A stretch of 52,774 bases of DNA from contig JBBAGC010000001.1 in assembly GCA_041655115.1 (NCBI GenBank), positions 1 to 52,774 of the forward strand, written 5' to 3'. Source of the DNA: Spirochaetota bacterium. GTDB lineage: Bacteria; Spirochaetota; UBA4802; UBA5550. Made by a program: the position numbers and the translations under genes. Under the pieces are notes generated by a model that worked only from the letters and a program-made list of their open reading frames with translations, had not been told where the DNA came from and made no database searches. Below, piece after piece: positions 32,940 to 51,479 of the stretch. Numbering within the stretch: the stretch's first letter is position 1; each line of letters opens with the position of its first letter.

Positions 32940-35900
32940 TTAGCCCTTTACGGCACGAATGTAGTGCTGCCCGGGTCCGAGGTGTCCATATACCTCTGAC
33001 CAGTAAAAATGCAATGCGGCTTCGCTGAAGCCCGCTCTTTTTATATCATCGACGAATTGCCAACCAAAATCAGTAAATACAAGCGATCCATCATCGGATA
33101 CCGGGTTGCCATGAAAAACAGGCGGGAGAATATAATTCACATTGCCATCAATAATTTTGGCACGACACACGCTATCTTCCCTGTCCAGATGAAAGGGAAC
33201 AGTCATCAACAGTTCGCCCCCCGGTTTCAGTACCCGGCACATCTCCCGCAAGGCTTTAATCGGGCTTGTAACATGTTCAAGAACATCGTTGCTGATAATA
33301 ATATCAAATCTTCCACTTTCAAAGCTTAGTTTTTCCGCATCTTCGTGTCTTATTCCCTTTACAATTTTCCCCGGCGTCAGTTCCGCACCCAAATACTCAC
33401 TGCCGGTATAGAGTGCCCGCGGCAAGCAATCGTTCAGACATTTATAAACAGGCGTAACCTGTTCCATAAGATACACTGCCGGCATCCTGTCGCGAAAAGA
33501 TTGAATAGTTCGACACGCTTGAAACACAATCATTCTTTGTCGGTTATTCAAGCCACAACTCGAACAAACCAGACGCTCGCGCCAATTGGGTATCCACACA
33601 CCTCGATCTTCAACAGCACCGCATTGCTGATCCACCAAATACTCTACTTCACGATCACAAACTCTGCAGTAACCCAGCAGATGGTAGGCTGCTACGCCAC
33701 TATTCTCCATGGCGATGCGCCGCTCCGTCGCGCAGCAATCCTGAAATTCCTGAGAAATCGACCAGTCATCATATTCAGTTTTGGTTGAGGCAGTTAAAAT
33801 AACTTCCAGTAAATCTCCGGTCTGATCCATGCATATTACCCCATCGGATCTATTCGGTGACACCTCATTAAGGGGCTTGCGTACTATCTTGCTGCTATCG
33901 ACTCCGATATCTTTCAGCAACGCTTCAACCGTATTGATACCGGCTTCCAGCGAGTAATTGCGTCGCACAAAATCCAGGCCGCCCCGTGAGCAGGAATTCC
34001 ACAGTTCCGCATCTTGATACAGGCGCACAACTGTATCGGCGAAATCCGAAGGTTCATCCGCTACTATTACGCCATCGCCTTTCATCAAGTCCATTCCCTC
34101 AGCGCCGATCGTAGTTGCAACGCAGGGCAATCCGTAGCTCAGGCTGGTGCCGATTTTCCCCTTAATCCCGGAGCCGTAGCGCATGGGTGCCACACTCATA
34201 CGGCAATAATCAAATATCTCTCTCAGATCCTCGACGTAACCAACCACTTTTATGTTGTCATCTGCCAGAGCCAGCACTTCGGCGGGTGGGCGACTGCCTA
34301 CAATGTAAAAAGCGATTTCCGGCAATTGCTGTCGAATCAATGGAAATATCTCGTTTACAAACCAACACACACCATCAATGTTCGGCCGATGTTGAAAACC
34401 CCCAACAAACACTATATCGCGACGTTCTTCGCCGGGTGTCTTTGTTCCGGGCGCAGCTATGGCCCATGAAAAAAGATAAATATTGCTTTTTCGCATTTTC
34501 CCTGTCAGTTCAGCGTCCAGCAGTTCCTTCTCAGTTGAACTATGGACGATGGTAGCATCCGCAGCCTGAATAATGCGCATTTCTCGTTTTCGTGTCTTTT
34601 CCGCCGCTCGACGCAAATCATCAGAATCAACCAGTTCTGCCTCGCGTAGTTCTCTCAGATGGTGCAGATCAGATGTATGAAATACTAATTTCGCATTGGG
34701 GCAGTATTTACGAATTGCCGCCAAATTACGTTCCGCCGACAATAGTCGAAAAACGACAACAACATCATATTGTTCCCCGTTTTGAGACAAATACCGATCG
34801 ATCGACGTGACATGCGGTGCATACAGACACTCTATCCCGATCCGTTGGAGATCTTCTGTATAAGGTTCCATGAAAAGAAAATTGTCTTCCGGGACAAAGG
34901 TTACCTTGAAGTCCAATCCCTGCAAGATGCGCATGAGATTCAGTGCCGTGATTGAACCGGCATCCTGGTCAGGGGTTGGTGTGCAATGATCCAGCACCAA
35001 GGCGCGGCCACTTACTCTGCGGTCTTTTTCCTGTTCAGGGTTCACTCCCGGAACACCATGTCCCACAATCATTTCTTTCCAACGAGCAAAAAGCTTATTT
35101 GCATTCTCCACCTGGTACGCCTTAACGCCCGAAGAAACCTCAGTGCCGGATGTGATTCCTTCGAAGTGGATCACCTCGGACAGGGGTTGATACAGCACCC
35201 GATAGCCGGCTTGACGGACACGGAAAGCAAGATCGGAGTCCTCTCCATAGGCAGGCAAATAATGCTCGTCAAAACCGCCCAGACGGTCGAAAAGCTCTTT
35301 AAGAATCATCAAAGACGCGCCGGAGCAGTAATCCACGTCGCGAAGGTAGTTGAACTCAGGTCTGCTTGGGTCCTGCAACCGCCCATAATTCCAGCCCGAC
35401 CCATCCTGCCAGATAATGCCTCCAGCTTCCTGCAGGCGGCCGTCGGGATAGACCAGCTTCGAGCCGACCAGCCCGGCCTGGGGAACGCAGTTAAAAGTAT
35501 TTACTAATTCATCCAGCCAGCCGCTCCTGACGACTGTATCGTTGTTTAATATGACAACAAGTTTGCCGCGTGCCCTCTTTACGCCGCGATTACAGGATTT
35601 GATAAAACCGAGATTCCTTCTGTTGCGAACAATGTGTAACCCCTTTATGTTCTTTAACATATCCAGTGTGTTGTCGGGTGATCGATCATCAACGACAATT
35701 ACTTCAAAGCTGTAATGAGATCGATGCGATCTGAGTGACCGTAGACATTGATAAGTGTACTCGACCTTTCCGAAAACCGGGATTACGATAGAAACTGTTG
35801 GTTTATCGGGGCACAAGAGGTCGAAAGGTTCACCTGGAGAGGTAGGTTCACCATATTTGTATTGTGATTGGGTTGCACCGGGTAGTTGAGTTTTCCATAA

Positions 35901-36953
35901 ACTATATGAAAGGGTATGCGAAAAAATGCCGGGGAAAAATCTGTACAAAAAACTTTTTAGTCGATTCTTCGTTAACGTGGAAACCGGAAGGTGGCTATAA
36001 ATTGCTCGGAACAAAACGACAATAATTTCTTTGGACTGATTCACAATGTAACGCCACATGCCTGCGATGCGGCGTATCGGGGCGGTCATTTTCCATGAAC
36101 GGGAACGGTATATGTCGTTAATGGTCGCATTGAGCCGATCAATCTCTTGCCTTGCCGTTTGACGTTCGCTTTCCAGAAAATCATTCAGCCTATGGATTTC
36201 TTCAGATGTGCTCTTACGTTCATAATACAGAACTCTTAGGAGCCCTTCAGCCGCGACCGAATTCCCCAGAATTCTGTAGAGAGTGAGGATTTTATCGGTT
36301 GTTTCTTCATCGCTACCGAATAACTCGGGAAGAATTTCAGCAGCATGTTTCCCGTAAGCGAGCACGCCCAACCCGTTGGAATGCTGAAACGCAAAAGAGG
36401 GATATTCGATCTTCAACTCATCCCATAATTTCCAGACGCCAAAATCGCCCTCATGTACAGCAATATCGTGCAGCAGAATGACTCCGCGATCACTCATCTT
36501 GAGTTTCCAGTTGTCAAAGTCATGCCGGACGGCCTCATAGGTATGCAACCCGTCTATATGAAGCAGATCAATGGAACCATCGGGAAACCGGGGAACCGCA
36601 TCGTCAAACGTAGATTGAATCAGGAGTGAGAAATGCCCATACTGCTGATCATGTTTCTCACGCAATTCCTCAAAAACTTCTTCTCCATAGTAGCCGGAAT
36701 GTTCATCGCCTGCCCACGTATCAACGGCAAAACACCGTGTCGGCAATTTGAAACGGGAAACAGCTTCGCAGAAAACGAAGTACGAATCCCCTTTGTGTAC
36801 TCCCAATTCGACCAGATTTCGAGGCATTAATTGCCGGACCAGCATAAATGCAAAGGGTATATGCCCATGCCATGAAATAATCTCACCGGTTGTGCGAGGC
36901 GACCAGTCATCAGGCTTAAATATAGATAATTCCAGAAAGCGGTTTGATTTCAT
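32940..36953 (-). CDS. 1337-aa multidomain glycan assembly protein: N-terminal methyltransferase, coiled coil, GT2, GT4-like GT, then zinc-ribbon plus a C-terminal methyltransferase
   Basis: Domains by residue number:
- aa 40-170: [10 protein letters not shown]...[13 protein letters not shown]...VILLHD (methyltransferase)
- aa about 235-290: heptad-rich, charged segment
- aa 386-600: [13 protein letters not shown]...[10 protein letters not shown]...[11 protein letters not shown] (GT2)
- aa 850-960: VGGF...[30 protein letters not shown] (Glycos_transf_1)
- aa 1096-1135: CxxC...CxxC
- aa 1215-1255: [13 protein letters not shown]...[12 protein letters not shown] (methyltransferase). Confidence 0.75.
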
Positions 36954-37558
36954 CTCATACCCACTGTCATTGCACGGTGCCTCAAGCTTCGTACCGCCCT
37001 CATTTTAATGTTCTGCCAGAACCCTTTGTCCGGTTTTCGGCAAACCAACATGGAATCATGCCACCAGTCGCTCCCGTCCTCGTAGCCCTCATCCGACCAC
37101 TGTGTGGAAACTTCAATCACTTCAAGGTGCGCGAATTTCGCCAGTGAGCGCATACCGTCAGGGTAAAATCGCCAGCAATCCAAAGGATATCTGTGTTCCG
37201 GACCACTGGATGGCGCCAGGATGCAACATATGCCGGCCGGTTTTAGCACCCGTGCAATTTCCAGCATTGTTATCCAGAAATACTCGATATGCTCGAACGC
37301 CTGGCCGGAAATGACCACGTCTGCTGAGTTGTCTGTAATTTCTCGCCAAACATATGGTGTGTGTAATACTACATCCACATTATCGCCTTGTGCCATGTCA
37401 ATACCGATATACATCCACTTCGGCTTATGAAACAAAGAACGATATGAACCATTTACATCCTGGCTTCCCAGATCGTAAATGCGCAGAGAGACATCTTCTT
37501 TTCCCGAAAGATACCTCCGGCAAAAATCTTCCATCTTCTTAAATGAACTGGCGTGCAT
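36950..37558 (-). CDS. Class I SAM-dependent methyltransferase
   Basis: [11 protein letters not shown]...[15 protein letters not shown]...[12 protein letters not shown]. An ATGA overlap links it to the 1337-aa gene. Confidence 0.7.
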
Positions 37559-37572
37559 ATTCAGTTTGATTG

Positions 37573-38355
37573 TCAGTCTGGCAAGCGATAGATCCAGGCA
37601 TCAGGCCAATAAGTCAATTCTTCTATGACGTGCTCATTCCCGCACAGTGCGGGCGGACGTTTGATAACAAATTCAGGGTGAGCGGCTACAAACTCACGAG
37701 CAGCCGTAGCCGGATTATCATCGATCCATTCAGCCTTCCCCCATGGCGTGTCTGCAAGGTGTTGCATTACACCATCAGCGGCAACTATATATGATCCCGG
37801 TGTAACCATGTCTGCATATGCATTAAGCTCCTCCATCACATGAGATTTTGAATGATCGCTGTCAAGGAAAACAAAAACCTTGCTGTCTGATTTGGTATGT
37901 TCCCGTACCTTTTCCACCACCGCAGTCGACGTGGAATCTCCTTGTATCAAAGTGATCAGATCTCCAAAAGGACTTTGCTCTATTCTCGCCCGCAAATCCG
38001 CCGGTACGACAATATCAACCGAAACGACACGTCCTTTACCAAGCAGACGACATAGGGTTGCAAAAAAAATTGAACTTCCTCCTTGACTAACTCCGGTTTC
38101 GACGATTACATCCGGCCTAAGGGCAACAATTATCTCCTGAAGTCGCAGCAGATCATCCGGAAATTGCCAGACAGGAAAGCCAAACCAGGAAAAGGTTTGC
38201 CAGTGCAACTGGTTCCATTCCTGTTTAATCCAGATACTGGAAAGCAATCTGAATCCTTCTTGCGAGTAAAGCGGGATATCTACTTCGTTGCCACCATTTC
38301 TGGTTTGAATGATGAGTTCATCGGTATCAATTATGATTTTCACAGTATTCCTCAA
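37573..38355 (-). CDS. CmcI / cephalosporin-hydroxylase-family SAM-dependent methyltransferase, copy 2
   Basis: FSWFGFPVWQFPDDLLRLQEIIVALRPDVIVETGVSQGGS parallels the protein encoded at 14572-15378. The start is a TTG at 38355, or possibly a GTG four codons downstream. Confidence 0.7.
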   Translation of the reverse strand: MRNTVKIIIDTDELIIQTRNGGNEVDIPLYSQEGFRLLSSIWIKQEWNQLHWQTFSWFGFPVWQFPDDLLRLQEIIVALRPDVIVETGVSQGGSSIFFATLCRLLGKGRVVSVDIVVPADLRARIEQSPFGDLITLIQGDSTSTAVVEKVREHTKSDSKVFVFLDSDHSKSHVMEELNAYADMVTPGSYIVAADGVMQHLADTPWGKAEWIDDNPATAAREFVAAHPEFVIKRPPALCGNEHVIEELTYWPDAWIYRLPD

Positions 38356-38504: not shown

Positions 38505-40484
38505 TTAATGACAACTACCACTATTTTCCTCCATAGCACATGATCCCGTTTTCAGAAAGTATTCATTATGTTTTTCCTTTAACATAAGGCCCATGTACTG
38601 TGCAGCCGGAACGCTGAAGTGGTGGCGGTCATAGGTGAACAGTTTTCCCCCAAACATCAATGGACAGTCACTGACAGAATCTCCACGACAGAGTAGCTCC
38701 CTCTTGCTTATGAAGATAACTTGAAGTGTTGAAGCAAGTGTTTTGAGCTCATCATCAAAAGCAAAACTATGCCAATCCATATTTGTTTCATAATGGGCAT
38801 TCATTTCCATATTTCCATCCCGAATAACCATTTCAGGAACATCCTCTTTAAAAAACATATAATTGCCAAGCACAATAATCGGGATATTTGTCTGATTTCT
38901 TATGCACATAATGGTGCGCTTCAAGTTTTCCGGTCTATACCAACTGAAAACGGTATTAATAATTATGAGATCCGCATGGGATAGCTGACCTTGATACAAT
39001 AATCTTTCATTTCGTTTGATACAGCCCTCACGATCTGGATGCTTCGCAGTGAGCAGTTTGTAATCTTCCCGGACTAGGGGAGGACATCCCGCTAATCCAT
39101 GTACTTCGTAATGGTACTCTGGATAGTGTGCGGCTAACGCATTCAAGGCATCAGGCGCGTGACTATCACCGATTATAATCACAGTAAAACCTTTCTTCGG
39201 TGTACCAACTACAATACTTTGGTTTACGGAGCTCATTTCATGAACGAGCTTAAAGCGGGCCTTTTTTTCTGCTTCCGCTTCTTTCGAAAACCTTGTCAAT
39301 TCATCAGGGAACCTCCATGCCCAGCCGTTTCCGGCACTTATCATCATCGACACAGTAAACAAACATACCATACCGCCTGCTGATAATTTCATAAAATCAG
39401 CGAACGATCTGGTATTCTTTTTTTCTGATTGACTGCTTATCCTAAAGGGATTTTCGACAAACCTATACATGGCAACTGCTGTTATTACAGAAACCACAAT
39501 AATGGATATTCTTCCAACCACTCCCGGATCGCATCCGTGCCACTGTCGAAAGAATACAAAGAGGGGCCAGTGGACAAGATATAAAGAATATGAGATACGT
39601 CCCAAACCAACAAACAAGCGGTTAGACAGCAAGGGTTGTGCAATTTTACTTTCACTACCAAACCGAATCAGCAGAACAGCCCCTAGACAGGGAACCAACG
39701 CCATTAGCCCAGGGAATCGTGTTGCGTCTGAATAGGTGAAAACAGCATAAAAAAACAGTATGAAACCGGACAAAGCAAGAGTATTGCGAATCCATCCAGC
39801 AGCTGTTAGTCGGAATGGGACCAATGCACATACGGCACCCACCGTAAATTCCCCGATACGGAATGGCATTAAATAGAAAGCACCTGATGGATCTTTAACG
39901 ATCGCAATTTCTGCCACAATAAAAGACAGAACCCCAACTGCCGTCAGTACAACAACACTATTTCTGGTGTTTCTTAACAATCGGACGAGAAGAGCGATCA
40001 GGACCGGCCAGATGAGATAATACTGAAATTCTACTGCAAGTGCCCATGTATGCAATAAAGGTTTTTGAATCGCTGATGCTTCAAAATATCCGGACTGGCT
40101 CCAAAAATAAAAGTTGGACACTGAAAAAATCGATGCAATTGCACTTTCGCTTGTATGTTTCAGGTCAGCGGGGGAAGAAAAAATAATGCCAGCTGTTAAA
40201 GTGAGCGCAATGGTGAAGAAAAGAGCCGGGACAATGCGGCTGATCCTCCTGCCATAAAACGTCTGAAACGAAAAAACCTCCTTCTGTATCTCTGGAAAGA
40301 CATTACGCGTTATCAGGTAGCCGCTGATAACAAAAAAAACATCCACGCCGACAAAGCCTCCGGCAAAGCACGGCAATAACTTAAAGTGAAATGCCAAAAC
40401 TGCCATAACAGCGAAGGCTCGTAAACCTTCGATGTGCGGTAAAAACAAAGAGTCTGCTTTTATGTTTGACTGAGAGCTACGCAA
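38505..40484 (-). CDS. Acyltransferase-3 (OafA/OatA-like) membrane O-acyltransferase with a C-terminal SGNH-like domain
   Basis: IEGLRAFAVMAVLAFHF at the N terminus, about 10 predicted hydrophobic segments, then a soluble C-terminal region of about 270 aa. The ORF appears to start at a TTG. Confidence 0.75.
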   Translation of the reverse strand: MRSSQSNIKADSLFLPHIEGLRAFAVMAVLAFHFKLLPCFAGGFVGVDVFFVISGYLITRNVFPEIQKEVFSFQTFYGRRISRIVPALFFTIALTLTAGIIFSSPADLKHTSESAIASIFSVSNFYFWSQSGYFEASAIQKPLLHTWALAVEFQYYLIWPVLIALLVRLLRNTRNSVVVLTAVGVLSFIVAEIAIVKDPSGAFYLMPFRIGEFTVGAVCALVPFRLTAAGWIRNTLALSGFILFFYAVFTYSDATRFPGLMALVPCLGAVLLIRFGSESKIAQPLLSNRLFVGLGRISYSLYLVHWPLFVFFRQWHGCDPGVVGRISIIVVSVITAVAMYRFVENPFRISSQSEKKNTRSFADFMKLSAGGMVCLFTVSMMISAGNGWAWRFPDELTRFSKEAEAEKKARFKLVHEMSSVNQSIVVGTPKKGFTVIIIGDSHAPDALNALAAHYPEYHYEVHGLAGCPPLVREDYKLLTAKHPDREGCIKRNERLLYQGQLSHADLIIINTVFSWYRPENLKRTIMCIRNQTNIPIIVLGNYMFFKEDVPEMVIRDGNMEMNAHYETNMDWHSFAFDDELKTLASTLQVIFISKRELLCRGDSVSDCPLMFGGKLFTYDRHHFSVPAAQYMGLMLKEKHNEYFLKTGSCAMEENSGSCH

Positions 40485-40512: not shown

Positions 40513-41210
40513 GAGACCTTTGCACAACTCCCCCATTATCCCTTTCCCTCACGTTCACATAGGCCCTGAAAAACTGTGTTATTCAAAGCTATCATATTAA
40601 TATTACTTGACATTCAAACGTTTTTCTGCCATAGTTCGTCCATAAAAATCACCCTCGGGAGGATTTCATGGGCTTCAAAAACATGAAAGTCAATTTCACC
40701 TTCGCCGACATGGCACTGTCAACCTCAATGGAGAAGAACCGGGCCATCAAACGCATGGAAGAGATCAACGCCATCGCCGACGGCATCATGAGAAGGGCCA
40801 CAGGAAGAACTAGCCTCACGGCCTTCGAAGTAGCGAGGCATAAGGCCATCGCGAAGATCAGATATATCGTCGAACAGTACTTCGGGCTCACCCATCTCCA
40901 TAACAACGCTTCCAGGGCACGGTTTACCACCATCGCCAAAAATGCCACCGACGCCCTCTTCAGGCAATTCGCCTTCAACCTTCAAAGGGGAACCAGGGTC
41001 CTGGCAACATGAAACAAGGGAGTAGTGCGTCCGCAGAGGGAAAAACAGAGAAACGGAGACTCCCAATGAGTCATTCGGGATGTCAAAGGGTCGTGTCATA
41101 GCGGTAAAAACGCTTTCGGTCCGGAACTCCGACCGGAAGTAACCTCCGGAATCCTGAAAAAATGGCCCCGAAAGGGGAAAGCAGGGAATAGGCGATTATT
41201 CAAACGTCTC
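40513..41210 (+). mobile_element. Degenerate IS (IS4/IS5-superfamily type) with an internally deleted transposase
   Basis: GAGACCTTTGCACAACTCCC at 40513 matches the reverse complement of 41191-41210 (GAGACGTTTGAATAATCGCC) at 14 of 20 positions by hand alignment. The 3'-terminal region of about 140 bp recurs at 52248-52391. Confidence 0.6.
40668..41012 (+). pseudogene. Transposase remnant (N- and C-terminal segments of a DDE_Tnp_1-type IS5-like transposase, catalytic core missing)
   Basis: Only 114 aa. FADMALSTSMEKNRAIKRMEEINAI resembles the N-terminal region. RYIVEQYFGLTHLHNNASRARFTTIAKNATDALFRQFAFNLQRG resembles the conserved C-terminal region of IS5-family transposases. Confidence 0.6.
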
Positions 41211-41230: not shown

Positions 41231-42586
41231 TCAATCGTTCCAATTGCAAATATTCTTTACCACATCCTTTTGGAGACAATCGCGGTATTCTGCAAAACTA
41301 AAATATGATATAAGATGGTTATTGTTAATGTTCGGAATTGAATTTTGATGAGGACATACTGAACAAGCCGTATTCAAAAAATTAACGTCTGACGAATCAA
41401 AATATTTTCGAGAGATTACGTAATGCATGCTGTTAAAGACGTTAATGTCTGATAAAATATTCCCGAATAACGCGGACGGATCTTTCAAGGGTTCAAAACA
41501 ACAAGGAAATATGCGGCCAGTGGCGTCCATGGCCATGTCTTTATACAACCACTGACAAGTTTTCATATTTGGCCTTGATCCTTCAAGATAGTCGTCGTCC
41601 ACACGTGAGACCCATGATTTCTCCCAATGATCCTCAATGATCGGATGAAGGTCTATTACAGCGTTTTCAAGAGACTGGCGGCCAGCGCCAATTTGTAAAT
41701 TGAATACATTATAACGAGGTAGTAGGTTTAATGGTTTAGTAATTGTTGGATCGTACATTGAAACATCATATGGTTCGGCAAAATCGATCCGGTCCACACC
41801 TCTCTCTTGGGCCAACTTTTTCGCTTGATTTATTTCAGATATCGTATGATCAAAAAGAAGGTACTGCCATACAATAAAAGGCGTTTTTGATTTCAAATCT
41901 TTGCGGGCTTTAACAAGACGGGTAATGTTGTCGAGGACAAGATCGAAGTTGCCATTGACACGGTACTTACCATAAGTTTCGGCAGTAGCCCCATCGATAG
42001 ATAAAATCAAATAGTCAAGCCCTGAGGCAACCAGCGCCTCTGCATCAAAAGAAAGCGAAAGATTTGTAGAAATAGATGTACGCATCAAAAAACGGCGCGA
42101 TTCCTGAATGAATTGTGGTGTTTTTTTGTTTAACAAAGGCTCCCCCCAGTTAAAATATTGGGTGTTGATTGCATAAGGCCCGAATTCATAGAGGAGTCGG
42201 TCAAGAGTGTCCTTATTCAGGTTACCAGGAACCCAGTCAATTTTGCTTTTATCTTGAGCTGTTTTTCGATGAATGCATCCAGGGCACGCCAATTGGCAGG
42301 AATTACATGGATCGACAATAAGACCAAACGGACGTGAAATCAGTCGGCTATGTCGTCGCAGGTATTGGTATTTACCCACTGCAACGTTGGATATCTTGAG
42401 CAATAAAACTTTGGCAAATCTTTCCGAGCCATAGACTTGCTTTAGATAACTCAACGATTCTCTATTGAAGTTGTCGACTTTTTTAAGAAATATATCAAAT
42501 TCAATTTCAGACTCGCTGAGCGCGGACAGTTCATTTAACAAATTCGATATCGGCAGAAAGTTAGTATTCATTGCCACTTTTTCCAT
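41231..42586 (-). CDS. Radical SAM enzyme with a SPASM/twitch-like C-terminal cysteine motif; function unknown
   Basis: CQLACPGC (CX3CX2C), NWGEPLL and LILSIDGATAETYGKYR form the radical-SAM core. The C-terminal segments CQWLYKDMAMDATGRIFPCC and ACSVCP are SPASM/twitch-like. The ATG at 42586 is preferred over the TTG at 42592. The gene is A+T-rich. Confidence 0.8.
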   Translation of the reverse strand: MEKVAMNTNFLPISNLLNELSALSESEIEFDIFLKKVDNFNRESLSYLKQVYGSERFAKVLLLKISNVAVGKYQYLRRHSRLISRPFGLIVDPCNSCQLACPGCIHRKTAQDKSKIDWVPGNLNKDTLDRLLYEFGPYAINTQYFNWGEPLLNKKTPQFIQESRRFLMRTSISTNLSLSFDAEALVASGLDYLILSIDGATAETYGKYRVNGNFDLVLDNITRLVKARKDLKSKTPFIVWQYLLFDHTISEINQAKKLAQERGVDRIDFAEPYDVSMYDPTITKPLNLLPRYNVFNLQIGAGRQSLENAVIDLHPIIEDHWEKSWVSRVDDDYLEGSRPNMKTCQWLYKDMAMDATGRIFPCCFEPLKDPSALFGNILSDINVFNSMHYVISRKYFDSSDVNFLNTACSVCPHQNSIPNINNNHLISYFSFAEYRDCLQKDVVKNICNWND

Positions 42587-42607
42587 CACCAACTGTAGGG
42601 TGAGTCC

Positions 42608-43639
42608 TTAATTTTTACACTTTATCTTGCGACTAAAAGTTTTCATCATACCAACTATTTGTTTCCCTACTGATTTATATCGAAGGCATTCAAAATGTTG
42701 CTGCAGTTCCTGTAATTCATTTTTATCCGGGTCTCCCGGAAGTTGATTGAGAATGGACTGATAATAATCATTTGCCCGCTTGCTCTCTCTGCTCTTCGGT
42801 TTAAACGAAGAAGATGTCTCATCTATCTTTGAACTGTTAATTTTCTCCTTTAACGGCAAAAGACAATCCGGATTAAATTCCTCTCCCAAAAAGTCAAAAC
42901 AACTGCTCAATGTTGATTCAGGCGAATTAATAAATTCAGTATAACCAATACGCAATACCTTGTTCTTACCGAGCGCTTTCTCACCTTTAATTGCATACTC
43001 AACATGCTTAATCCAATGATCATAAGCTTTTGCTTCATCATGGTTCGCACCGGCGCTTCCCGCCTGAGAAAATTTCATTAAAGAACGCGCAACCTCGTTC
43101 GGGTCTCGAAGCAAATGGATAAATCGCGCTCCGGGAAACAGCAGGGACAAACTATACATGTAATAAACATTCTCCGGTGTCCCATCCACCCAGCGTCGCT
43201 TTGGATCAGATACACTACGAACAACTTGAATATTCTTATTACTAATCGGAGATGTAAATACTTCTCCGGCATTCATTCTTTCATTAATCTCTTTCTCTGT
43301 TAACCCCAACTTTTGCAGGGAACTCTTTTGTATAAACCGTAGACGCGGCTCTCGCGTATCTACAATAAACTGGTCAAGCGCCCGGCCAAAAGCGCCATAA
43401 AAATCCGCCTCATCCCAGTCAAGCGCGCCCAAATGTGAAAAGCGACCGTGTACGGTGCCGACTTCGTAAAGTTTCCGCATGTCAATCGTCAAACGGGCTA
43501 TCCAGTGTGTTTCTGGAAGCGGCAAAATATTGGGGTGCTGCCCAAGACACCAGGTAAGAACACTTGTCCCGGAACGTCCTGAACCGACTATAAATACCGG
43601 CTCGCATTGAGACTGTCGATTAACTTTCACTGAACTCAT
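42608..43639 (-). CDS. Sulfotransferase-family protein, paralogue 1
   Basis: A GSGRSGTS loop (5'-phosphosulfate-binding type) and an RDPNEVARS motif (3'-phosphate-binding type). The ATG at 43639 is preceded by GAGAGG. A GTG at 43645 is an alternative start. Confidence 0.8.
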   Translation of the reverse strand: MSSVKVNRQSQCEPVFIVGSGRSGTSVLTWCLGQHPNILPLPETHWIARLTIDMRKLYEVGTVHGRFSHLGALDWDEADFYGAFGRALDQFIVDTREPRLRFIQKSSLQKLGLTEKEINERMNAGEVFTSPISNKNIQVVRSVSDPKRRWVDGTPENVYYMYSLSLLFPGARFIHLLRDPNEVARSLMKFSQAGSAGANHDEAKAYDHWIKHVEYAIKGEKALGKNKVLRIGYTEFINSPESTLSSCFDFLGEEFNPDCLLPLKEKINSSKIDETSSSFKPKSRESKRANDYYQSILNQLPGDPDKNELQELQQHFECLRYKSVGKQIVGMMKTFSRKIKCKN

Positions 43640-43727
43640 ATTCACCTCTCTGAAACAACTTGCTCCTTTCTACTATTCGCTTCACGAGTAAAGATACCAT
43701 TTCTTCAGAAGAAGTTTTCTCGTTGGA

Positions 43728-44714
43728 TTATGCTTTGTTGATATCGGCGGCATAATTTTCGAAATGTTGTTGCAGTCCCTGCAATTCAACTTGATCAGGG
43801 TCTCCCGGTGATTGATTAAGAATGGACTGATAATAATCATTTGCCCGTTTGCTCTCTCTACTTTTCGGTTTAAATGAAGCAAGAGGCTCATCTATCTTTG
43901 AACTGTTGATTTTCTCCTTTAACGGCAAAAGACAATCCGGATTAAATTCCTCTCCCAAAAAACCAAAACAACTGCGCAACGTAGATTCAGATGAATTAAT
44001 AAAATCTATGTAATCAATTCGTAACACCTTATCCCACCCCAGCGCTTTCTCACCTTTAATTGCATACTCAACATGCTTAAGCCAATGCTCATAAGCTTTT
44101 GCTTCATCATGGTTCTCGCCGGCGCTTCCCGCCTGAGAAAATTTCATTAAAGAACGTGCAACCTCGTTCGGATCCCGAAGTAAATGGATAAACCGCGCTC
44201 CGGGAAACAGCAGAGACAAGCTATACATGTAAAACACATTCTCTGGTGTCCCATCCACCCAGCGACGCTTTGGATCAGATACACTACGAACAACTTGGTA
44301 ATTCTTGGGTGTGACAAGGTCAGGATCCGGACTCAGCTTTCCTTCCTTTTCAAGGTTCTCGATATCAGATTCACTTAATCCTTTTTTTTTGGCTGATAAT
44401 TTACGAATAAATCTCAAACGAGCATCGATTGTATCAATTACGAATTGGTCGACTGAACGTCCAAATGAGGCATAAAAATCCGCCTCATCCCAGTCAAGCG
44501 CGCCCAAATGTGAAAAGCGACCGTGTACGGCGCCGACTTCGTAAAGTTTCCGCATGTTAATCGTCAAACGGGCTATCCAGTGTGTTTCCGGAAGTGGCAA
44601 AATATTGGGGTGCTGCCCAAGACACCAAGTGAGAAGACTTGTTCCCGAACGACCAGAACCGACAATAAATACCGGCTCGCATTGAGACTGTCGATTAACT
44701 TTCACTGAACTCAT
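43728..44714 (-). CDS. Sulfotransferase-family protein, paralogue 2 (tandem duplicate)
   Basis: Numbering from the track GTG start, the first 28 residues are identical to paralogue 1, and the RBS region is also identical. It carries the same GSGRSGTS and RDPNEVARS motifs. The central segment and the C terminus differ. Confidence 0.8.
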   Translation of the reverse strand: MSSVKVNRQSQCEPVFIVGSGRSGTSLLTWCLGQHPNILPLPETHWIARLTINMRKLYEVGAVHGRFSHLGALDWDEADFYASFGRSVDQFVIDTIDARLRFIRKLSAKKKGLSESDIENLEKEGKLSPDPDLVTPKNYQVVRSVSDPKRRWVDGTPENVFYMYSLSLLFPGARFIHLLRDPNEVARSLMKFSQAGSAGENHDEAKAYEHWLKHVEYAIKGEKALGWDKVLRIDYIDFINSSESTLRSCFGFLGEEFNPDCLLPLKEKINSSKIDEPLASFKPKSRESKRANDYYQSILNQSPGDPDQVELQGLQQHFENYAADINKA

Positions 44715-44753
44715 ATTCACCTCTCTGAAATTTGACGCTCGATGGGGGACTTG

Positions 44754-45127: not shown

Positions 45128-45883
45128 CTATTTTCTTGTCTGAACTATACTTTTACGATAAGCTTCCAATACTTTGGGAACCTTGCCCTGTGCCTGGGTT
45201 TTGCCATTTTCTATCCAGATCAACCTGTCACAAATTTCCTGTATTAGAGGGATCACATGTGAAACCAGAACTACCGTTTTGTCAGACTTTATCCGTCTCT
45301 TCATTGCCGCCGTAGATTTTTCTTTGAAAGCCTCATCACCAACCCCAAGAACTTCATCCAACAAAATAACATCCGGGTCTAGATGATAGGCAACGGAGAA
45401 GCCCAGTCGGGCACGCATACCGGTGGAATAGGTGTTAACTGGTTCTTCGAAAAAGCCGTTGAGCTCAGAGAAGGCAACGATATCATCTAAACGAGATGCT
45501 ATTTCTTGTTTCTTAGCACCCAACAACATGCCGCTCAAGATGGCATTTTCTCGACCGCTCAGATGCGGCACGAAGCCGGCTCCAATTGAGATCATTGTTA
45601 TTTTTAAGTTTGGCTGGTGTACGATTATCTTTCCTTTATTGGGTGCAATGATACCGCCCAATACTCGAAGAAGCGTACTTTTACCACACCCGTTTCTTCC
45701 TATCACACCCAGAGTTTCACCTGCATACAAGTCAAACGATACATCTTGGAGCGCCCAGAAGTGAGAATGTCGTAAAAAGCGAAGACGACGGCTGTAGCAC
45801 AAGCCAACATTTTCAAGAGTAATGATTCTATTGCCTTTTTGATTGGGGTACAGTGGCTTACTTTTGTGTGCCTCAAGGGACAT
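45128..45883 (-). CDS. wzt: ABC-transporter ATP-binding protein for polysaccharide export (Wzt/TagH-like), without a C-terminal carbohydrate-binding extension
   Basis: Walker A GRNGCGKST, signature YSTGMRARL, and Walker B ILLDEVL. The protein is only 251 aa. Confidence 0.85.
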   Translation of the reverse strand: MSLEAHKSKPLYPNQKGNRIITLENVGLCYSRRLRFLRHSHFWALQDVSFDLYAGETLGVIGRNGCGKSTLLRVLGGIIAPNKGKIIVHQPNLKITMISIGAGFVPHLSGRENAILSGMLLGAKKQEIASRLDDIVAFSELNGFFEEPVNTYSTGMRARLGFSVAYHLDPDVILLDEVLGVGDEAFKEKSTAAMKRRIKSDKTVVLVSHVIPLIQEICDRLIWIENGKTQAQGKVPKVLEAYRKSIVQTRK

Positions 45884-45904: not shown

Positions 45905-46702
45905 TTAATGAATGATTTTGGGATAAATCCGGTCAAATCTGTAATACAATAACATTGCAAAAGCCATCGTTACCGCAGAGAATAATATAATCAATACAAG
46001 ATGTAGCAAATCAGGAAGAACGCTGTTGTGAAGCACTTGGCGGTACATATTGATCATAACTGCCATCGGATTCAACCAGAGATAACCCTGAATAGATTCA
46101 GGCAATCTTGAAATGTCAAAAAAAATCCCGGAAAGGAAAAAGAGCATCAGCAGGAAATTATCCAATATGAAGCGAAGATCCGGGAAAAAGGGCATAATTG
46201 CCGCGAAAAAACCGGACACTGCTACAATTAAAAAGAGTTGCGTCACTATCAAAATCGGCAGAAACGTCCAGGACCACGTTATCTTCGTTTCCGTGAATTG
46301 CAGAAAAACAAGATAGAGTGCGAGGACCACAAAAAATTTAAAGGTATTGACTGCAACGGTGGTCAGGGGAAAAAGAATTTTCGGGACGTACACCTGGTTC
46401 ATCAGTCCAACATTTGCCATGAGACTGCTCGCACCGGCAGAAACGGTTGACTGGAACCATTTCCATACAATCAGGCCGGTCAGCAGAAAAATAACAAAAT
46501 TCTCATCACCCCGCTTAAATAGGTGTAAGAAAACAAAGTAAAAAATAGTCATGTACATAACTGGTTCTAAAATCCACCACAGCACCCCCAGATAACCCCG
46601 TGAAGCTTCCACGCGCAATCCGGCTTTTGCTTTCTGCATTACCAGATCAATGAAATGTCGCCGCTCCTTATAGCCTGTGCGAATCGTGTCTTTGATGCTC
46701 AT
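45905..46702 (-). CDS. wzm: ABC-2-type polysaccharide export permease (Wzm-like)
   Basis: About 265 aa with six hydrophobic segments. GYLGVLWWILEPVMYM is typical of ABC-2 permeases. A GTG at 46717 is an alternative start. Confidence 0.8.
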   Translation of the reverse strand: MSIKDTIRTGYKERRHFIDLVMQKAKAGLRVEASRGYLGVLWWILEPVMYMTIFYFVFLHLFKRGDENFVIFLLTGLIVWKWFQSTVSAGASSLMANVGLMNQVYVPKILFPLTTVAVNTFKFFVVLALYLVFLQFTETKITWSWTFLPILIVTQLFLIVAVSGFFAAIMPFFPDLRFILDNFLLMLFFLSGIFFDISRLPESIQGYLWLNPMAVMINMYRQVLHNSVLPDLLHLVLIILFSAVTMAFAMLLYYRFDRIYPKIIH

Positions 46703-46769
46703 GCGAAGAGGCTCCACGGTATCGGACGTTGTGTTTCTCGGATAAGTGATTGATGGTTCCTGTAGTCAG

Positions 46770-49020: not shown

Positions 49021-50292
49021 TTATCCCCGTATCATGCCGGCGGCGACGGTATTGTTGGTGGCCTCGTCGATGAGGATGAAACTGCCCGTTGTCCTGTTCT
49101 GCTTGTAAGGATCGAAGAGCAGGGGTCTGGTGGTTCTGAGCTGAACGCGGCAGATGTCGTTCATGACGATATGTTTTTCGTTTTCCATGCGGCTCAGTTC
49201 GTTGATGTCCATTTTGTAGATCACGTCCTTTATCATGGCCCGCACTTCCGCTGAGGTGTGTTTCAGGGCGTACTTGCCCCCCACTTGAAGTGGTTTTTCG
49301 CTGAACCAGCAGATCATGGCATCGATGTCCTGGCTTGTTGCGGGCTGGTTGTTGGGCTTGGCGATCATGTCGCCGCGGCTGATGTCAATGTTGTTTTCCA
49401 GTTCCAGTGACACAGACATGGGAGGATGGGCCTCCTCGACGGGCTGATCGTACTCATGAATTGACTTTACGATGCTTTCAAAGCCCGAGGGCAGGACCAC
49501 GATCCGCTCGCCCGTTCTGAAAACGCCGCTTACCACCCTGCCGCTGTAGCCGCGGTAGTCACGATACCCTTCTACGTCCTGGGGGCGAATCACATACTGT
49601 ATAGGGAAGCGGGCATCGATGACATTGTAGTCGCTGGCGATGTGGATGTTTTCGAAGAGGTACATGAGCGTGGGACCGTTGTACCAGGTCATCTGTTCCG
49701 ATCGGTTGACGATGTTGTCACCTTTCAGGGCGCTGATGGGAACAAACTGAATGTCGTTGATATCCATTTTCGAGGCAAACCGTTTATAGCTGTCAACGAT
49801 TTCTTCATAACGCCCCTCGGAGTAATCCACCAGGTCCATCTTGTTGACGCAGATGACCAGGTGGGGGATGCCGAGAAGTGAGGCGATGTAGGAATGCCGT
49901 TTGGTCTGCTCGATGACGCCGTTGCGCGCGTCCACCAGGATCAGGGCCAGGTTGACCGTTGACGCCCCCGTGACCATGTTCCGGGTGTACTGGGTGTGAC
50001 CGGGCGTATCGGCAATGATGAACTTGCGCTTCGGCGTGGCGAAATAGCGATAGGCCACGTCGATTGTAATGCCCTGTTCCCGTTCCGCCTTGAGTCCGTC
50101 GGTGAGAAGAGCCAGATCGACGTTTTTGAGACCTTTTTTGCGGCTCGTTCGTGTGACCGCTTCGAGCTGGTCCTCAAAAATACCCTTGCTGTCGTAGAGC
50201 AGCCGTCCGATGAGGGTGCTCTTTCCGTCGTCAACACTGCCTGCGGTAGAGAAGCGAAGCAGTTCCATGTCAAGGTACGATTTTTTCTTCAT
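49021..50292 (-). CDS. cysN: Sulfate adenylyltransferase subunit 1 (GTPase subunit, no fused APS kinase)
   Basis: [33 protein letters not shown] and NKMD GTPase motifs. The size is 423 aa. Confidence 0.9.
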
Positions 50293-50314
50293 ATCCTGCT
50301 TTCTGTCAAAAACT

Positions 50315-50509
50315 GGAGACCTTTCATTTTATCATTTCGAGAAGCATGGCGACGAGAAATCCATGTCCCGAGCACAGCGAGGGGTCTTCTAGACTTCTCA
50401 CATGCGTTCGAAGTGACCTTTAAAAATGTCATTTCGAGGAGCGAAGCGACGAGAAATCTTTCCTTGATATCGAAATGACACACAATCGATAGTTTTTCAA
50501 TAACGGTCT
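50315..50509 (-). mobile_element. MITE-like repeat copy R9 (reverse orientation), between cysD and cysN
   Basis: GAGACCTTTCATTTTATCATTTCGAG ... reversed core ... TCGAAATGACACACAATCGATAGTTTTTCAATAACGGTCTC. A perfect 5-bp direct repeat AACTG lies at 50310-50314 and 50510-50514. Confidence 0.85.
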
Positions 50510-50570
50510 CAACTGGATTTATTCTTCGAATACTGCATCTCGTTTTCGTGGGAATGACGTGAAGGAGGTT

Positions 50571-51479
50571 TTAAAAATAACCGTTGATCTTTCTGTCCTC
50601 CATGGCGGTATCAGAGCGTTTGTCGTCGAAACGGCCGCCCCGCTCGGTGATTCTCGAAGCGGCCACTTCCTGTATGATGTCTTCCACGGTGGACGCCTGG
50701 GAGGTGACAACGCCGGTACAGGTCATGTCGCCCACGGTGCGGCACCGGACGACCAATTCTTCGACCCGGTCGGCGTCGTCGACCTGGACATAGGGGGACA
50801 GGGCGAGCATGACGCCGTCACGGTGAACAACTTTTCGGGTGTGGGAAAAATAGATGTCCGGGATAGGAATATTCTCCAAGGCAATGTACTGCCAGACATC
50901 CATTTCGGTCCAGTTGCTCAAGGGGAAAACGCGGAAATGTTCGCCCATATGCTTTCGGCCGTTAAAAATGTTCCAGAGCTCGGGGCGCTGATTCTTGGGG
51001 TCCCACTGGCCGAAATCGTCGCGATGGGAGAAGAAACGTTCCTTGGCTCGGGCCTTTTCTTCATCACGGCGGGCACCGCCGATTGCCGTGTCGAATTTGT
51101 GTTCTTCGATGGCGTCAAGCAACGTGGTGGTCTGGAGAACGTTGCGGGACGTGTATTTCCCTGTTTCTTCCACAACACGCCCCCTGTCGATAGACTCCTG
51201 GACCGAGGCTACAATCAACTGCGCGTCGAGCATCGCGATAAAGGTATCACGGTATTTGATGGTTTCGGGAAAATTGTGGCCCGTGTCCACGTGCATGAAC
51301 GGATAGGGAATGCGCGCGGGGAAGAAGGCTTTTCTCGACAGCCGGCCGAGAACGATCGAATCCTTGCCGCCGGAAAAGAGCAGGACAGGGTTTTCAAACT
51401 GTGCCGCCACCTCCCGTAAAATAAAAACTGCTTCCGATTCCAGTTCCCGCAGGTGTGTGATGTAATATTGCTGTGGCAT
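50571..51479 (-). CDS. cysD: Sulfate adenylyltransferase subunit 2
   Basis: LRELESEAVFILREVAAQFENPVLLFSGGKDS (PP-loop) and the CysD-typical ...RISGYF-type C terminus (here KINGYF). The size is 302 aa. Confidence 0.9.
   Translation of the reverse strand: MPQQYYITHLRELESEAVFILREVAAQFENPVLLFSGGKDSIVLGRLSRKAFFPARIPYPFMHVDTGHNFPETIKYRDTFIAMLDAQLIVASVQESIDRGRVVEETGKYTSRNVLQTTTLLDAIEEHKFDTAIGGARRDEEKARAKERFFSHRDDFGQWDPKNQRPELWNIFNGRKHMGEHFRVFPLSNWTEMDVWQYIALENIPIPDIYFSHTRKVVHRDGVMLALSPYVQVDDADRVEELVVRCRTVGDMTCTGVVTSQASTVEDIIQEVAASRITERGGRFDDKRSDTAMEDRKINGYF

What the first reader, a model, noticed from the sequence alone, without database searches (positions are those of the whole stretch)
41231..42586. 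Orphan radical-SAM/SPASM-like enzyme with no obvious substrate in its neighbourhood
The radical-SAM core (CQLACPGC, NWGEPLL, SIDGATAETYGKYR) is followed by a partial SPASM/twitch-type cysteine pattern (C-x13-G-x4-CC, later CxxC).

SPASM enzymes normally act on peptides or proteins, as in anaerobic sulfatase maturation or RiPP crosslinking. This window has no sulfatase gene and no recognisable precursor-peptide ORF. Instead the gene is operonic with sulfotransferases and glycan-export genes.

Possible roles include a radical sugar modification (epimerisation, C-C or C-S chemistry, deoxygenation), or modification of a protein partner encoded elsewhere. All of these are hypotheses.
Basis: inference. 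Interest (0 to 1): 0.7.

Follow-up and report, generated by a model that had tools for sequence, protein, structure and literature searches.

The report
Twitch radical-SAM enzyme in sulfated-glycan operon
This is an intact radical-SAM enzyme from a large, unnamed family whose closest relatives sit beside sulfotransferases in surface-sugar export operons, so it most likely modifies a sugar of that polymer rather than a peptide, but its reaction is unknown.

Summary
Window 41231-42586 (-) encodes an intact 451-aa radical-SAM protein with CX3CX2C at C97/C101/C104.

Its C-terminal cysteines are C344-x12-G-x4-C362(C363)...C408-x2-C411. That is four conserved ligand cysteines, not the seven of a SPASM domain. 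A family profile aligns them with the four cysteines of the BtrN Twitch domain, so the enzyme is Twitch-type with one auxiliary cluster.

It belongs to a large unnamed family: 1,640 50%-identity clusters at E<=1e-30, with no NCBIfam equivalog and no close solved structure.

It is not truly orphan. In every relative of at least 52% identity whose upstream flank could be read, and in several 36-41% relatives from other phyla, it lies next to or near a sulfotransferase of one of two unrelated Pfam families, usually beside wzm/wzt. Family members also occur fused to a sugar-type methyltransferase and to a Wzt_C-like glycan-binding module.

No conserved small ORF, RiPP recognition domain or Cys/Ser-type sulfatase accompanies it.

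Syntenic clusters exist without it, so it is an optional tailoring gene. The Acidobacteriota majority of the family has no conserved neighbour at all.

Best reading: a cytoplasmic, BtrN-like radical modifier of a sugar in a sulfated, O-methylated rhamnan-type glycan. The chemistry is unresolved.

The parts
41231..42586 (-). Radical-SAM/Twitch enzyme gene (451 aa; alternative TTG start at 42592)
   Evidence: ORF. Pfam Radical_SAM above its cutoff. Identical to public protein P0001. AF2 model has mean pLDDT 91.5.
42332..42586 (-). N-terminal three-helix domain (aa 1-85), conserved across the family (N67, R78, P86)
   Evidence: DSSP on the model gives H12-24, H30-52 and H55-76 with no strands. 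It is not a winged-helix RiPP recognition element.
42275..42298 (-). CX3CX2C motif (C97, C101, C104) that binds the SAM-cleaving [4Fe-4S] cluster
   Evidence: Invariant in alignment A1. Cysteine at 328 of the 329 family sequences that have a residue there.
41777..42331 (-). Radical-SAM core (aa 86-270), including the GEP motif at 148-150
   Evidence: Pfam match over residues 94-229. Foldseek probability 1.0 to radical-SAM structures.
41327..41566 (-). Twitch-type auxiliary-cluster domain (aa 341-420): C344-x12-G-x4-C362(C363)...C408-x2-C411
   Evidence: The family profile aligns these four cysteines with the SC / PC / CxxC cysteines of the BtrN Twitch domain. They are conserved in 312-324 of 349 sequences, and nearly all of the remainder are gaps from fragments. 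C363 is replaced by Ala or Ser in 20 sequences.
42608..43645 (-). Sulfotransferase 1 (345 aa), 21 nt upstream of the rSAM start
   Evidence: Pfam Sulfotransfer_3, E 3e-28.
43728..44720 (-). Sulfotransferase 2 (330 aa), a tandem paralogue 81% identical to sulfotransferase 1
   Evidence: Pfam hit; alignment.
45128..45883 (-). Wzt ABC-transporter ATPase (251 aa, no C-terminal carbohydrate-binding module)
   Evidence: Pfam ABC_tran.
45905..46717 (-). Wzm ABC-2 permease
   Evidence: Pfam ABC2_membrane.
49021..52124 (-). PAPS supply genes: cysN-like 49021-50292, cysD-like 50571-51479, APS kinase 51507-52124
   Evidence: Precomputed Pfam on the identical contig L088 (GTP_EFTU, PAPS_reduct, APS_kinase). 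ORF coordinates.
40668..41012 (+). IS5-family transposase C-terminal remnant in the 746-bp gap downstream of the rSAM gene
   Evidence: NCBIfam NF033581, E 1.8e-5, model positions 215-284 of 285. In L172 the rSAM and AT3 genes are only 53 bp apart.
38505..40484 (-). AT3-SGNH O-acyltransferase; follows the rSAM gene here and in L171 and L172/L092
   Evidence: Pfam Acyl_transf_3 plus SGNH. Synteny.
31403..38355 (-). Methylation and polymerisation block: CmcI-type methyltransferase (MT) 37573-38355, MT 36950-37558, 1337-aa MT-GT2-GT1-MT protein 32940-36953, TylF-type MT 32147-32935, MT 31403-32140
   Evidence: Pfam. The same block is syntenic in L093, L099, L098 and L095.

Best explanation
The gene encodes a cytoplasmic Twitch-type radical-SAM enzyme. 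It has one SAM-cleaving [4Fe-4S] cluster on C97/C101/C104 and one fully Cys-ligated auxiliary cluster on C344/C362/C408/C411.

It serves as an optional tailoring enzyme for the sulfated, heavily O-methylated, rhamnose-type surface glycan that this operon builds and exports through Wzm/Wzt.

Proposed mechanism (inferred): reductive cleavage of SAM gives a 5'-deoxyadenosyl radical. That radical abstracts a hydrogen from a sugar carbon of the residue that the adjacent sulfotransferases also act on, most plausibly at or near the non-reducing end of the undecaprenyl-linked chain. The auxiliary cluster then takes or returns the electron, as in BtrN. The product would be a keto-sugar (two-electron oxidation). 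Less likely alternatives are an epimer or an elimination product.

Shown here: the fold class, the cysteine ligand pattern, the family membership, and the recurrent linkage to sulfotransferase, wzm/wzt and methyltransferase genes. Inferred: the substrate, the position of attack, and the reaction outcome.
For: Enzyme class:
- Radical_SAM is above the Pfam cutoff and SPASM is below it.
- No NCBIfam equivalog fits; the best match scores 67.8 bits against a cutoff of 380.
- The family profile's best solved relative is BtrN (E 9e-7), and its second matched stretch pairs all four Twitch cysteines.
- BtrN is a Twitch enzyme with a four-Cys auxiliary cluster that oxidises a secondary alcohol on an aminocyclitol (PMC9012708).
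- The best structural matches are the sugar-acting BlsE and DesII.

Linkage to the glycan:
- A sulfotransferase lies directly beside the rSAM in the window, L002/L003, L084 where stop and start overlap, and L172. It lies one gene away in L173.
- In more distant relatives, a sulfotransferase of the unrelated Sulfotransfer_2 family is directly adjacent in L085, where it is fused to Wzt_C, and in L011.
- A sulfotransferase is within 10 kb in L001, L086 and L049.
- wzm/wzt lie in the same cluster in 9 of 24 distinct loci outside the Bryobacterales clade.
- In total, 13 of those 24 loci have a sulfotransferase and/or wzm/wzt.
- Dedicated PAPS-synthesis genes are present in the window and in L084.

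Fusions:
- P0132 is this family fused to Methyltransf_24 (33.9 bits, above the cutoff).
- P0193 is this family fused to a Wzt_C-like module (Pfam E 5.8e-4; BLAST 1e-5 to the Wzt_C part of the L085 fusion).

Against a peptide substrate:
- No conserved small ORF lies within 900 bp in 88 loci.
- The N-terminal domain is all-helical.
Against: - No member of the family has been characterised, and similarity to BtrN is remote: individual stretch E-values are 0.07 and 0.11, and TM-scores are 0.33-0.58.
- The bulk of the family (67 of the 80 best genome loci, Acidobacteriota Bryobacterales, about 33% identity) has no conserved neighbour. Their 126 flanking genes hit 144 Pfam families, none in more than 4. 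The family's general substrate therefore need not be a Wzm/Wzt glycan.
- Syntenic sulfotransferase clusters work without this gene (L093, L102, L100).
- Among 80 loci holding homologues of the sulfotransferase, only one carries this family.
- Linkage shows a shared pathway, not a shared substrate.
- The Wzt_C-like fusion is below the Pfam threshold.
- Gene calls in the fetched loci are crude longest-ORF calls. The sulfotransferase, Wzt and sulfatase detectors were home-built HMMs, spot-checked with Pfam.
Confidence: 0.5

Rival explanations
1. Sulfate-activated radical elimination. The sulfotransferase installs a sulfate ester as a leaving group. The rSAM abstracts the neighbouring hydrogen, and loss of sulfate gives a deoxy-keto or unsaturated sugar. 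This would resemble DesII (loss of the amino group), AprD4 and viperin (loss of hydroxyl). The pair would then be a two-step deoxygenation or desaturation module, not two independent decorations.
For: The sulfotransferase and rSAM genes are tightly adjacent, sometimes with overlapping stop and start codons, and this holds with two unrelated sulfotransferase families. The top fold matches are BlsE and DesII. Other, non-orthologous radical-SAM genes sit beside the same sulfotransferase subclade in L095, L098, L094 and L002. That suggests radical chemistry and sulfation are repeatedly combined.
Against: Close sulfotransferase homologues occur in syntenic clusters with no radical-SAM gene (L093, L100, L102), so sulfation has a role of its own. 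Two sulfotransferases plus dedicated PAPS genes suggest the sulfate stays in the product. My recollection is that DesII and viperin lack a Cys-ligated auxiliary cluster; I did not check this here. No reductase partner was identified.
Confidence: 0.15
2. Protein or peptide maturase. The enzyme would modify a protein encoded elsewhere, or a neighbouring enzyme such as the sulfatase-fold lipoproteins found next to it in some relatives. This would be like an anaerobic sulfatase-maturing enzyme or a RiPP maturase.
For: Many characterised SPASM/Twitch enzymes act on peptides (PMC9012708). Sulfatase-family (PF00884) genes lie within 10 kb in 11 of 88 loci. They directly follow the rSAM in L027, L033, L035 and L066, and one is divergent from the fusion protein P0132. 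These sulfatase-fold proteins carry lipoprotein-like signal sequences, so a cytoplasmic maturation step before export is conceivable. Most Acidobacteriota members are stand-alone genes. In L034 the family member lies next to a GrrM/OscB-like cyclophane maturase.
Against: The window has no sulfatase-fold gene. The adjacent 'sulfatases' of relatives carry Thr at the nucleophile position in a pattern like that of NPP-type phosphodiesterases (for example NTLPSQTSILTSLYP), not C/S-x-P-x-R. From general knowledge of that family, such a Thr needs no maturation. The anaerobic sulfatase maturase model TIGR03942 is not among the 25 NCBIfam matches listed at E<=0.01. Only four auxiliary cysteines are present, not seven. 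No conserved small ORF was found. There is no winged-helix recognition domain.
Confidence: 0.15
3. A housekeeping or metabolite-directed enzyme unrelated to the glycan (for example lipid or cofactor chemistry) that was merely recruited into, or hitch-hiked with, some glycan islands.
For: There are 405 loci in species-representative genomes. The top 80 are mostly Bryobacterales, several of whose genomes carry more than one copy, and the flanks are unrelated. An IS remnant lies right next to the gene in the window. The gene is present or absent among otherwise syntenic clusters.
Against: Independent adjacency to sulfotransferase or wzt genes occurs in loci from at least six named lineages: Spirochaetota, Nitrospinota, Desulfobulbaceae, Anaerolineales, Roseivirgaceae (Bacteroidota) and Robiginitomaculum (Alphaproteobacteria). 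That, plus the two glycan-type domain fusions, is hard to explain by chance.
Confidence: 0.12

Closest known systems
BtrN (2-deoxy-scyllo-inosamine dehydrogenase, butirosin pathway; PDB 4M7T)
   Same: Both are radical-SAM enzymes with a Twitch domain, and the four auxiliary-cluster cysteines align. BtrN is the best sequence-profile hit among solved structures. Its substrate is a carbohydrate-like small molecule, and its reaction is a two-electron oxidation with the auxiliary cluster as the proposed electron acceptor (PMC9012708).
   Different: BtrN is about 250 aa with no N-terminal helical domain and no 70-residue insert before the Twitch domain. Similarity is marginal: TM-score 0.58 on the target's length and 0.33 on the query's. 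There is no butirosin-type gene context here. This is not an orthologue.
Anaerobic sulfatase-maturing enzymes (anSME, TIGR03942)
   Same: Both belong to the radical-SAM SPASM/Twitch subgroup, share a thematic link to sulfate-ester biology, and have sulfatase-fold genes next to some relatives.
   Different: anSME has a seven-Cys SPASM domain with two auxiliary clusters; this family has four conserved cysteines. The equivalog model is not among the NCBIfam matches listed. The neighbours here are sulfotransferases, not sulfatases. The sulfatase-fold neighbours of relatives have Thr, not Cys or Ser, in the maturation motif.
DesII and BlsE (radical-SAM enzymes acting on a nucleotide sugar and a nucleoside sugar acid; PDB 8HZV, 7VOB)
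   Same: These are the best Foldseek matches (E 1e-9 to 1e-8). BlsE is also the best single-sequence PDB hit (E 1.6e-4). Both act on sugar carbons.
   Different: TM-scores are only 0.39-0.52 and sequence identity 13-17%. NCBIfam BlsE scores 29 bits against a cutoff of 400. The conserved four-Cys auxiliary site of this family aligned only with BtrN among the solved structures examined.
WbdD-type chain terminators of ABC-transporter-dependent O-polysaccharides (E. coli O9a/O8)
   Same: This is a functional analogy only. WbdD-type genes are cytoplasmic enzymes that decorate the non-reducing terminal sugar. Wzt carbohydrate-binding modules read that cap (PMC3482155). Here a sulfotransferase (L085) and a family member (P0193) are each fused to Wzt_C-type modules.
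   Different: WbdD is a kinase/methyltransferase, not a radical enzyme. The window's Wzt has no binding module. Terminal action of the rSAM is inferred, not shown.

Membership tests
Radical SAM superfamily (PF04055) | CX3CX2C motif that binds the SAM-cleaving [4Fe-4S] cluster | tested here: met
   C97, C101 and C104 are invariant in A1. Cysteine is present in 328 of the 329 family sequences that have a residue there.
Radical SAM superfamily (PF04055) | Profile score above the curated threshold, and a partial TIM-barrel core | tested here: met
   37 bits against 29.5. The AF2 model alternates strands and helices over residues 88-270. Foldseek probability is 1.0 to many radical-SAM structures.
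SPASM domain (PF13186; seven-Cys, two auxiliary clusters) | CX9-15GX4C ... CX2CX5CX3C ... C motif (as I recall it), and a profile score above threshold | tested here: not met
   Only C-x12-G-x4-C and C-x2-C are present and conserved. SPASM scores 18.4 bits, below the 21.5 cutoff.
Twitch-domain radical SAM enzymes (BtrN type) | A truncated SPASM domain with one auxiliary cluster ligated by four cysteines | tested here: met
   The family profile aligns C344, C362, C408 and C411 to the SC / PC / CxxC cysteines of the BtrN Twitch domain. The definition of Twitch is from PMC9012708. This is sequence-level evidence only.
Twitch-domain radical SAM enzymes (BtrN type) | Physical presence of a second [4Fe-4S] cluster | not testable with these tools
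   Needs Fe/S analysis and EPR or Moessbauer spectroscopy on anaerobically purified protein.
Anaerobic sulfatase-maturing enzyme (TIGR03942) | Equivalog-level profile match | tested here: not met
   TIGR03942 is not among the 25 NCBIfam families listed at E<=0.01.
Anaerobic sulfatase-maturing enzyme (TIGR03942) | A Cys/Ser-type sulfatase substrate (C/S-x-P-x-R) encoded nearby | tested here: not met
   The window has no sulfatase-fold ORF. The sulfatase-fold genes that directly adjoin the rSAM in relatives have Thr-x-Pro-Ser-x.
RiPP radical-SAM maturases | An adjacent precursor-peptide gene | tested here: not met
   1,948 small ORFs (18-110 aa) within 900 bp of the gene in 88 loci gave no family beyond antisense shadows of conserved genes or closely related genomes.
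RiPP radical-SAM maturases | An N-terminal RiPP recognition element (winged helix with a three-strand sheet) | tested here: not met
   In the high-confidence model, residues 12-76 form three helices with no strand. No direct fold comparison of the isolated domain was run.
Non-reducing-end capping modules of Wzm/Wzt pathways (functional class) | Encoded with wzm/wzt and acts on the terminal residue of the lipid-linked glycan | tested here: inconclusive
   The gene location fits. Fusions of a family member and of a sulfotransferase to Wzt_C-type modules point this way. The P0193 match is sub-threshold, and no chemistry is known.

The most novel reading that the evidence does not exclude
The family would be the first radical-SAM enzyme known to act on a bacterial surface polysaccharide at the polymer or lipid-linked stage. 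It would work as an obligate partner of a sulfotransferase to build a sulfated, radical-modified non-reducing-end cap, or to use sulfate as a leaving group for radical deoxygenation. That cap would control chain termination or export in ABC-transporter-dependent glycan pathways.
Probability: 0.2. Interest if true: 0.8.

Novelty: new variant of a known kind. Interest (0 to 1): 0.55.

Why it matters
I know of no radical-SAM enzyme among the tailoring enzymes of O-polysaccharides or S-layer glycans, and full-text searches combining radical SAM with sulfotransferase and O-antigen or polysaccharide found none.

If this family modifies a sulfated glycan, three things follow:
- It adds a new reaction type to bacterial surface-glycan chemistry.
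- It gives a function to a family of well over a thousand sequence clusters.
- It offers a compact, testable enzyme pair (sulfotransferase plus rSAM) for making unusual sulfated sugars.

It would also be a further example of a SPASM/Twitch-type enzyme that does not act on peptides, which matters for genome mining that treats such genes as RiPP markers.

Tried and rejected
- **anSME identity.** Rejected: no equivalog hit, four rather than seven auxiliary cysteines, and no Cys/Ser-type sulfatase.
- **RiPP maturase.** The search for small conserved ORFs around 88 family loci found nothing real, and the N-terminal domain is all-helical.
- **Obligate partnership with the sulfotransferase.** Rejected by the reverse test. 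Of 80 metagenome loci with sulfotransferase homologues, only L092 carries this family, and syntenic clusters exist without it.
- **Conserved partner in the Acidobacteriota clade.** None found.
- **Single-sequence phmmer for neighbours.** Too insensitive. It was replaced by iterated HMMs. The first Sulfotransfer_2 HMM was contaminated by the Wzt_C part of a fusion protein and had to be rebuilt.
- **Second rSAM of L002/L003 (462 aa).** It is not a paralogue of this family. I did not test whether the window's IS5 remnant replaced such a gene.
- **Contexts of the two informative fusion proteins.** The contigs were too short to help.
- **Literature searches** for radical SAM with sulfotransferase, O-antigen or polysaccharide returned nothing relevant. 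The ascamycin cluster (sulfotransferase, sulfatase, two Fe-S/radical-SAM genes, PAPS genes; PMC4257720) is only a loose analogy.
- **Promoter and terminator scan** around the gene was at background level.
- **Spatial clustering of the four Twitch cysteines** in the model could not be checked, because coordinates are not exposed.
Full report
**1. The observation**

The minus-strand ORF 41231..42592 is real. From the ATG at 42586 it gives a 451-aa protein identical to a public prediction, P0001. NCBI names P0001 only as 'radical SAM/SPASM domain-containing protein' from a Spirochaetota metagenome-assembled genome, and it is found on 7 contigs.

The quoted motifs are present. The one correction is that the C-terminal pattern is C344-x12-G357-x4-C362-C363, not x13, followed by C408-x2-C411.

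Pfam Radical_SAM passes its threshold (37 bits against 29.5). SPASM does not (18.4 against 21.5). NCBIfam offers no equivalog: the best match, a tungsten-cofactor maturase model, scores 67.8 bits against a cutoff of 380, and the anaerobic sulfatase maturase model is not among the matches listed.

**2. The enzyme class**

A 31-sequence alignment spanning 32-68% identity has invariant C97, C101, C104, C344, C362, C408 and C411. C363 is nearly invariant.

Across about 340 family sequences the same seven cysteines are kept wherever the region is covered. C363 is replaced by Ala or Ser in 20 sequences, so it is unlikely to be a cluster ligand.

Four C-terminal cysteines rather than seven is what defines a Twitch domain, a truncated SPASM domain with one auxiliary cluster (PMC9012708).

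A profile of the family finds BtrN as its best solved relative (E 9e-7). The second matched stretch pairs the family's four cysteines with the SC / PC / CxxC cysteines of the BtrN Twitch domain.

The AlphaFold model is confident (pLDDT 91.5). It shows an N-terminal three-helix domain, the radical-SAM core, an insert, and the small C-terminal domain.

Foldseek finds no close structure; TM-scores are 0.3-0.58. The best E-values are to BlsE and DesII, which act on sugars. RiPP maturases, MoaA, viperin, PqqE and BtrN follow.

**3. The family**

The word-indexed search gave at least 420 homologues of about 450 aa. The exhaustive profile search gave 1,640 50%-identity clusters at E<=1e-30 and 10,246 at E<=1e-10. 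The weaker set certainly includes other radical-SAM families.

In species-representative genomes, 405 loci encode relatives. The 80 best are dominated by Acidobacteriota of the order Bryobacterales, several of whose genomes carry more than one copy.

**4. The window's neighbourhood**

All genes are on the minus strand. Read in the direction of transcription, the order is:
- APS kinase, cysD-like, cysN-like
- an RmlB-like dehydratase, a GT2 glycosyltransferase
- wzm, wzt, a 120-aa ORF
- two sulfotransferases, then the rSAM gene
- an IS5 remnant on the other strand
- an AT3-SGNH O-acyltransferase
- a CmcI-type methyltransferase and a small methyltransferase
- a 1337-aa MT-GT2-GT1-MT protein
- a TylF-type methyltransferase and another methyltransferase
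- a GHMP kinase and a nucleotidyltransferase
- rmlA, rmlC, rmlD

This is an ABC-transporter-dependent pathway for a rhamnose-type polymer that is O-methylated, O-acylated and sulfated, with its own PAPS supply.

**5. Neighbourhoods of relatives**

Close relatives (52-68% identity):
- L002/L003: wzm, wzt, two sulfotransferases, the rSAM, then a second and unrelated rSAM-SPASM gene.
- L084: PAPS genes, wzm, wzt, a sulfotransferase whose stop overlaps the rSAM start.
- L172/L092: sulfotransferase, rSAM, AT3-SGNH.
- L173: methyltransferase, sulfotransferase, a 220-aa ORF, rSAM, CmcI-type methyltransferase.
- L171: rSAM followed by AT3-SGNH.

Relatives at 36-41% identity:
- L001 (Nitrospinota): sulfotransferase, methyltransferases and a B12 radical-SAM gene.
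- L085: the rSAM is followed by a Sulfotransfer_2 protein fused to a Wzt_C module.
- L086: Wzt with Wzt_C, a Sulfotransfer_2 gene and sulfatase-fold genes.
- L011 (Robiginitomaculum): a Sulfotransfer_2 gene overlaps the rSAM start.
- L004 (Desulfobulbaceae): two family copies flank wzt. L006 (Roseivirgaceae): wzt, then the rSAM. L008 (Anaerolineales): wzm, wzt, then the rSAM.
- L049: sulfotransferase, wzm, wzt, methyltransferase, an unknown ORF, then the rSAM.

Overall, 13 of 24 distinct loci outside the Bryobacterales clade carry a sulfotransferase and/or wzm/wzt. Ten carry a sulfotransferase, drawn from two unrelated Pfam families.

**6. Fusions**

Among the top profile hits:
- P0132 is this family fused to a C-terminal Methyltransf_24 domain. 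That is the same Pfam family that matches the CmcI- and TylF-type methyltransferases of the window.
- P0193 carries a C-terminal extension that weakly matches Wzt_C. Pfam gives E 5.8e-4, a home-built Wzt_C HMM gives 2.7e-4, and BLAST gives 1e-5 to the Wzt_C part of the L085 sulfotransferase fusion.
- Others carry TPR repeats.

Wzt_C modules read the non-reducing-end cap of O-polysaccharides (PMC3482155).

**7. Limits of the linkage**

The reverse test is sobering. Of 80 metagenome loci holding homologues of the window's sulfotransferase (35-84% identity), only L092 has this rSAM family.

Syntenic clusters such as L093 (wzm, wzt, sulfotransferase, CmcI-type methyltransferase, small methyltransferase, the large multidomain protein, TylF-type methyltransferase, another methyltransferase, GHMP kinase) lack both the rSAM and the acyltransferase. 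The gene is therefore an optional tailoring function.

Within the closest sulfotransferase subclade, other non-orthologous radical-SAM genes sit beside the sulfotransferases in L095, L098 and L094. None of the 69 more distant sulfotransferase loci has any.

In the Bryobacterales clade, 126 immediate neighbours hit 144 Pfam families, none in more than four. Neighbour strands are about evenly split. No wzm-like gene and no sulfotransferase was detected within 10 kb in that clade.

**8. Peptide and sulfatase alternatives**

No small ORF is conserved near the gene, and there is no winged-helix recognition domain.

Sulfatase-fold genes occur in 11 of 88 loci. They directly follow the rSAM in L027, L033, L035 and L066. 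At the maturation site these adjacent proteins read Thr-x-Pro-Ser-x, for example NTLPSQTSILTSLYP. That resembles the Thr nucleophile motif of nucleotide pyrophosphatase/phosphodiesterases, and they also match Pfam Phosphodiest. From general knowledge, such enzymes need no formylglycine.

**9. Conclusion**

The most economical reading is a Twitch-type radical-SAM tailoring enzyme acting on a sugar of the sulfated, methylated glycan, functionally coupled to sulfation and possibly acting at the chain terminus. BtrN-like hydrogen abstraction and electron transfer to the auxiliary cluster is the working mechanism.

The reaction outcome (oxidation, epimerisation or sulfate elimination) and the substrate stage (nucleotide sugar or lipid-linked polymer) are not resolved.

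I put about 0.5 on the glycan-tailoring explanation as a whole, and about 0.25-0.3 on BtrN-like dehydrogenation specifically.

Noticed in passing
window 40668-41012 (+): A C-terminal fragment of an IS5-family transposase (NCBIfam NF033581, model positions 215-284 of 285) lies in the 746-bp gap between the rSAM gene and the AT3-SGNH gene. In L172/L092 those two genes are 53 bp apart, so this looks like an insertion scar.
   Followed up: partly
window 42608-43645 and 43728-44720 (-): The two tandem sulfotransferases are 81% identical, and their first 28 residues are identical. This suggests a recent duplication or gene conversion. L002, L095 and L098 also carry two copies.
   Followed up: partly
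window 44754-45116 (-): A 120-aa ORF between wzt and the first sulfotransferase has no Pfam match but is conserved (79% in L091). It contains a stretch that looks like class-I methyltransferase motif I (SFGCGDA). It may be a truncated methyltransferase or a small unknown protein.
   Followed up: partly
window 49021-52124 (-): cysN-like, cysD-like and APS-kinase genes lie at the head of the same gene string. They give the cluster its own PAPS supply, as in L084.
   Followed up: yes
window 32940-36953 (-): A 1337-aa protein combines Methyltransf_24, GT2, GT1 and Methyltransf_11 domains. It looks like a polymerase plus capping enzyme, and it recurs at 45-65% identity in L093, L095, L098, L099 and L102.
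   Followed up: partly
window about 9200-24900 (-): A second glycan cluster of the Wzx type lies here. It has a flippase (13035-14561), a sugar C-methyltransferase (17280-18506), GDP-mannose dehydratase (22188-23222), further epimerases and glycosyltransferases, and a WecA-like initiating transferase (23730-24854).
   Followed up: no
L085 9407-10819: A sulfotransferase (Sulfotransfer_2) is fused to a Wzt_C carbohydrate-binding module, directly downstream of the rSAM relative. This architecture suggests sulfation targeted to a capped glycan terminus.
   Followed up: partly
L027 9740-15534 and L033 8913-15552: In Thermoanaerobaculia the family member is followed by two sulfatase-fold ORFs, the first with a lipoprotein-like signal sequence and a Thr-type (NPP-like) nucleophile motif. 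In L033 it is also preceded by a 350-aa rSAM-SPASM gene. This recurring module has no known function.
   Followed up: partly
L098 7456-8913; L095 11991-14330; L002 11323-12711: Three other, mutually different radical-SAM/SPASM-type genes occupy positions next to the same sulfotransferase subclade. One of them (L098) has its SPASM/Twitch match at the N-terminus.
   Followed up: partly
window 47778-49073 (+): A 431-aa ORF lies antisense to the RmlB-like gene (47937-48995). It has a low-complexity, Gly/Val-rich translation and is most likely a shadow ORF rather than a gene.
   Followed up: no
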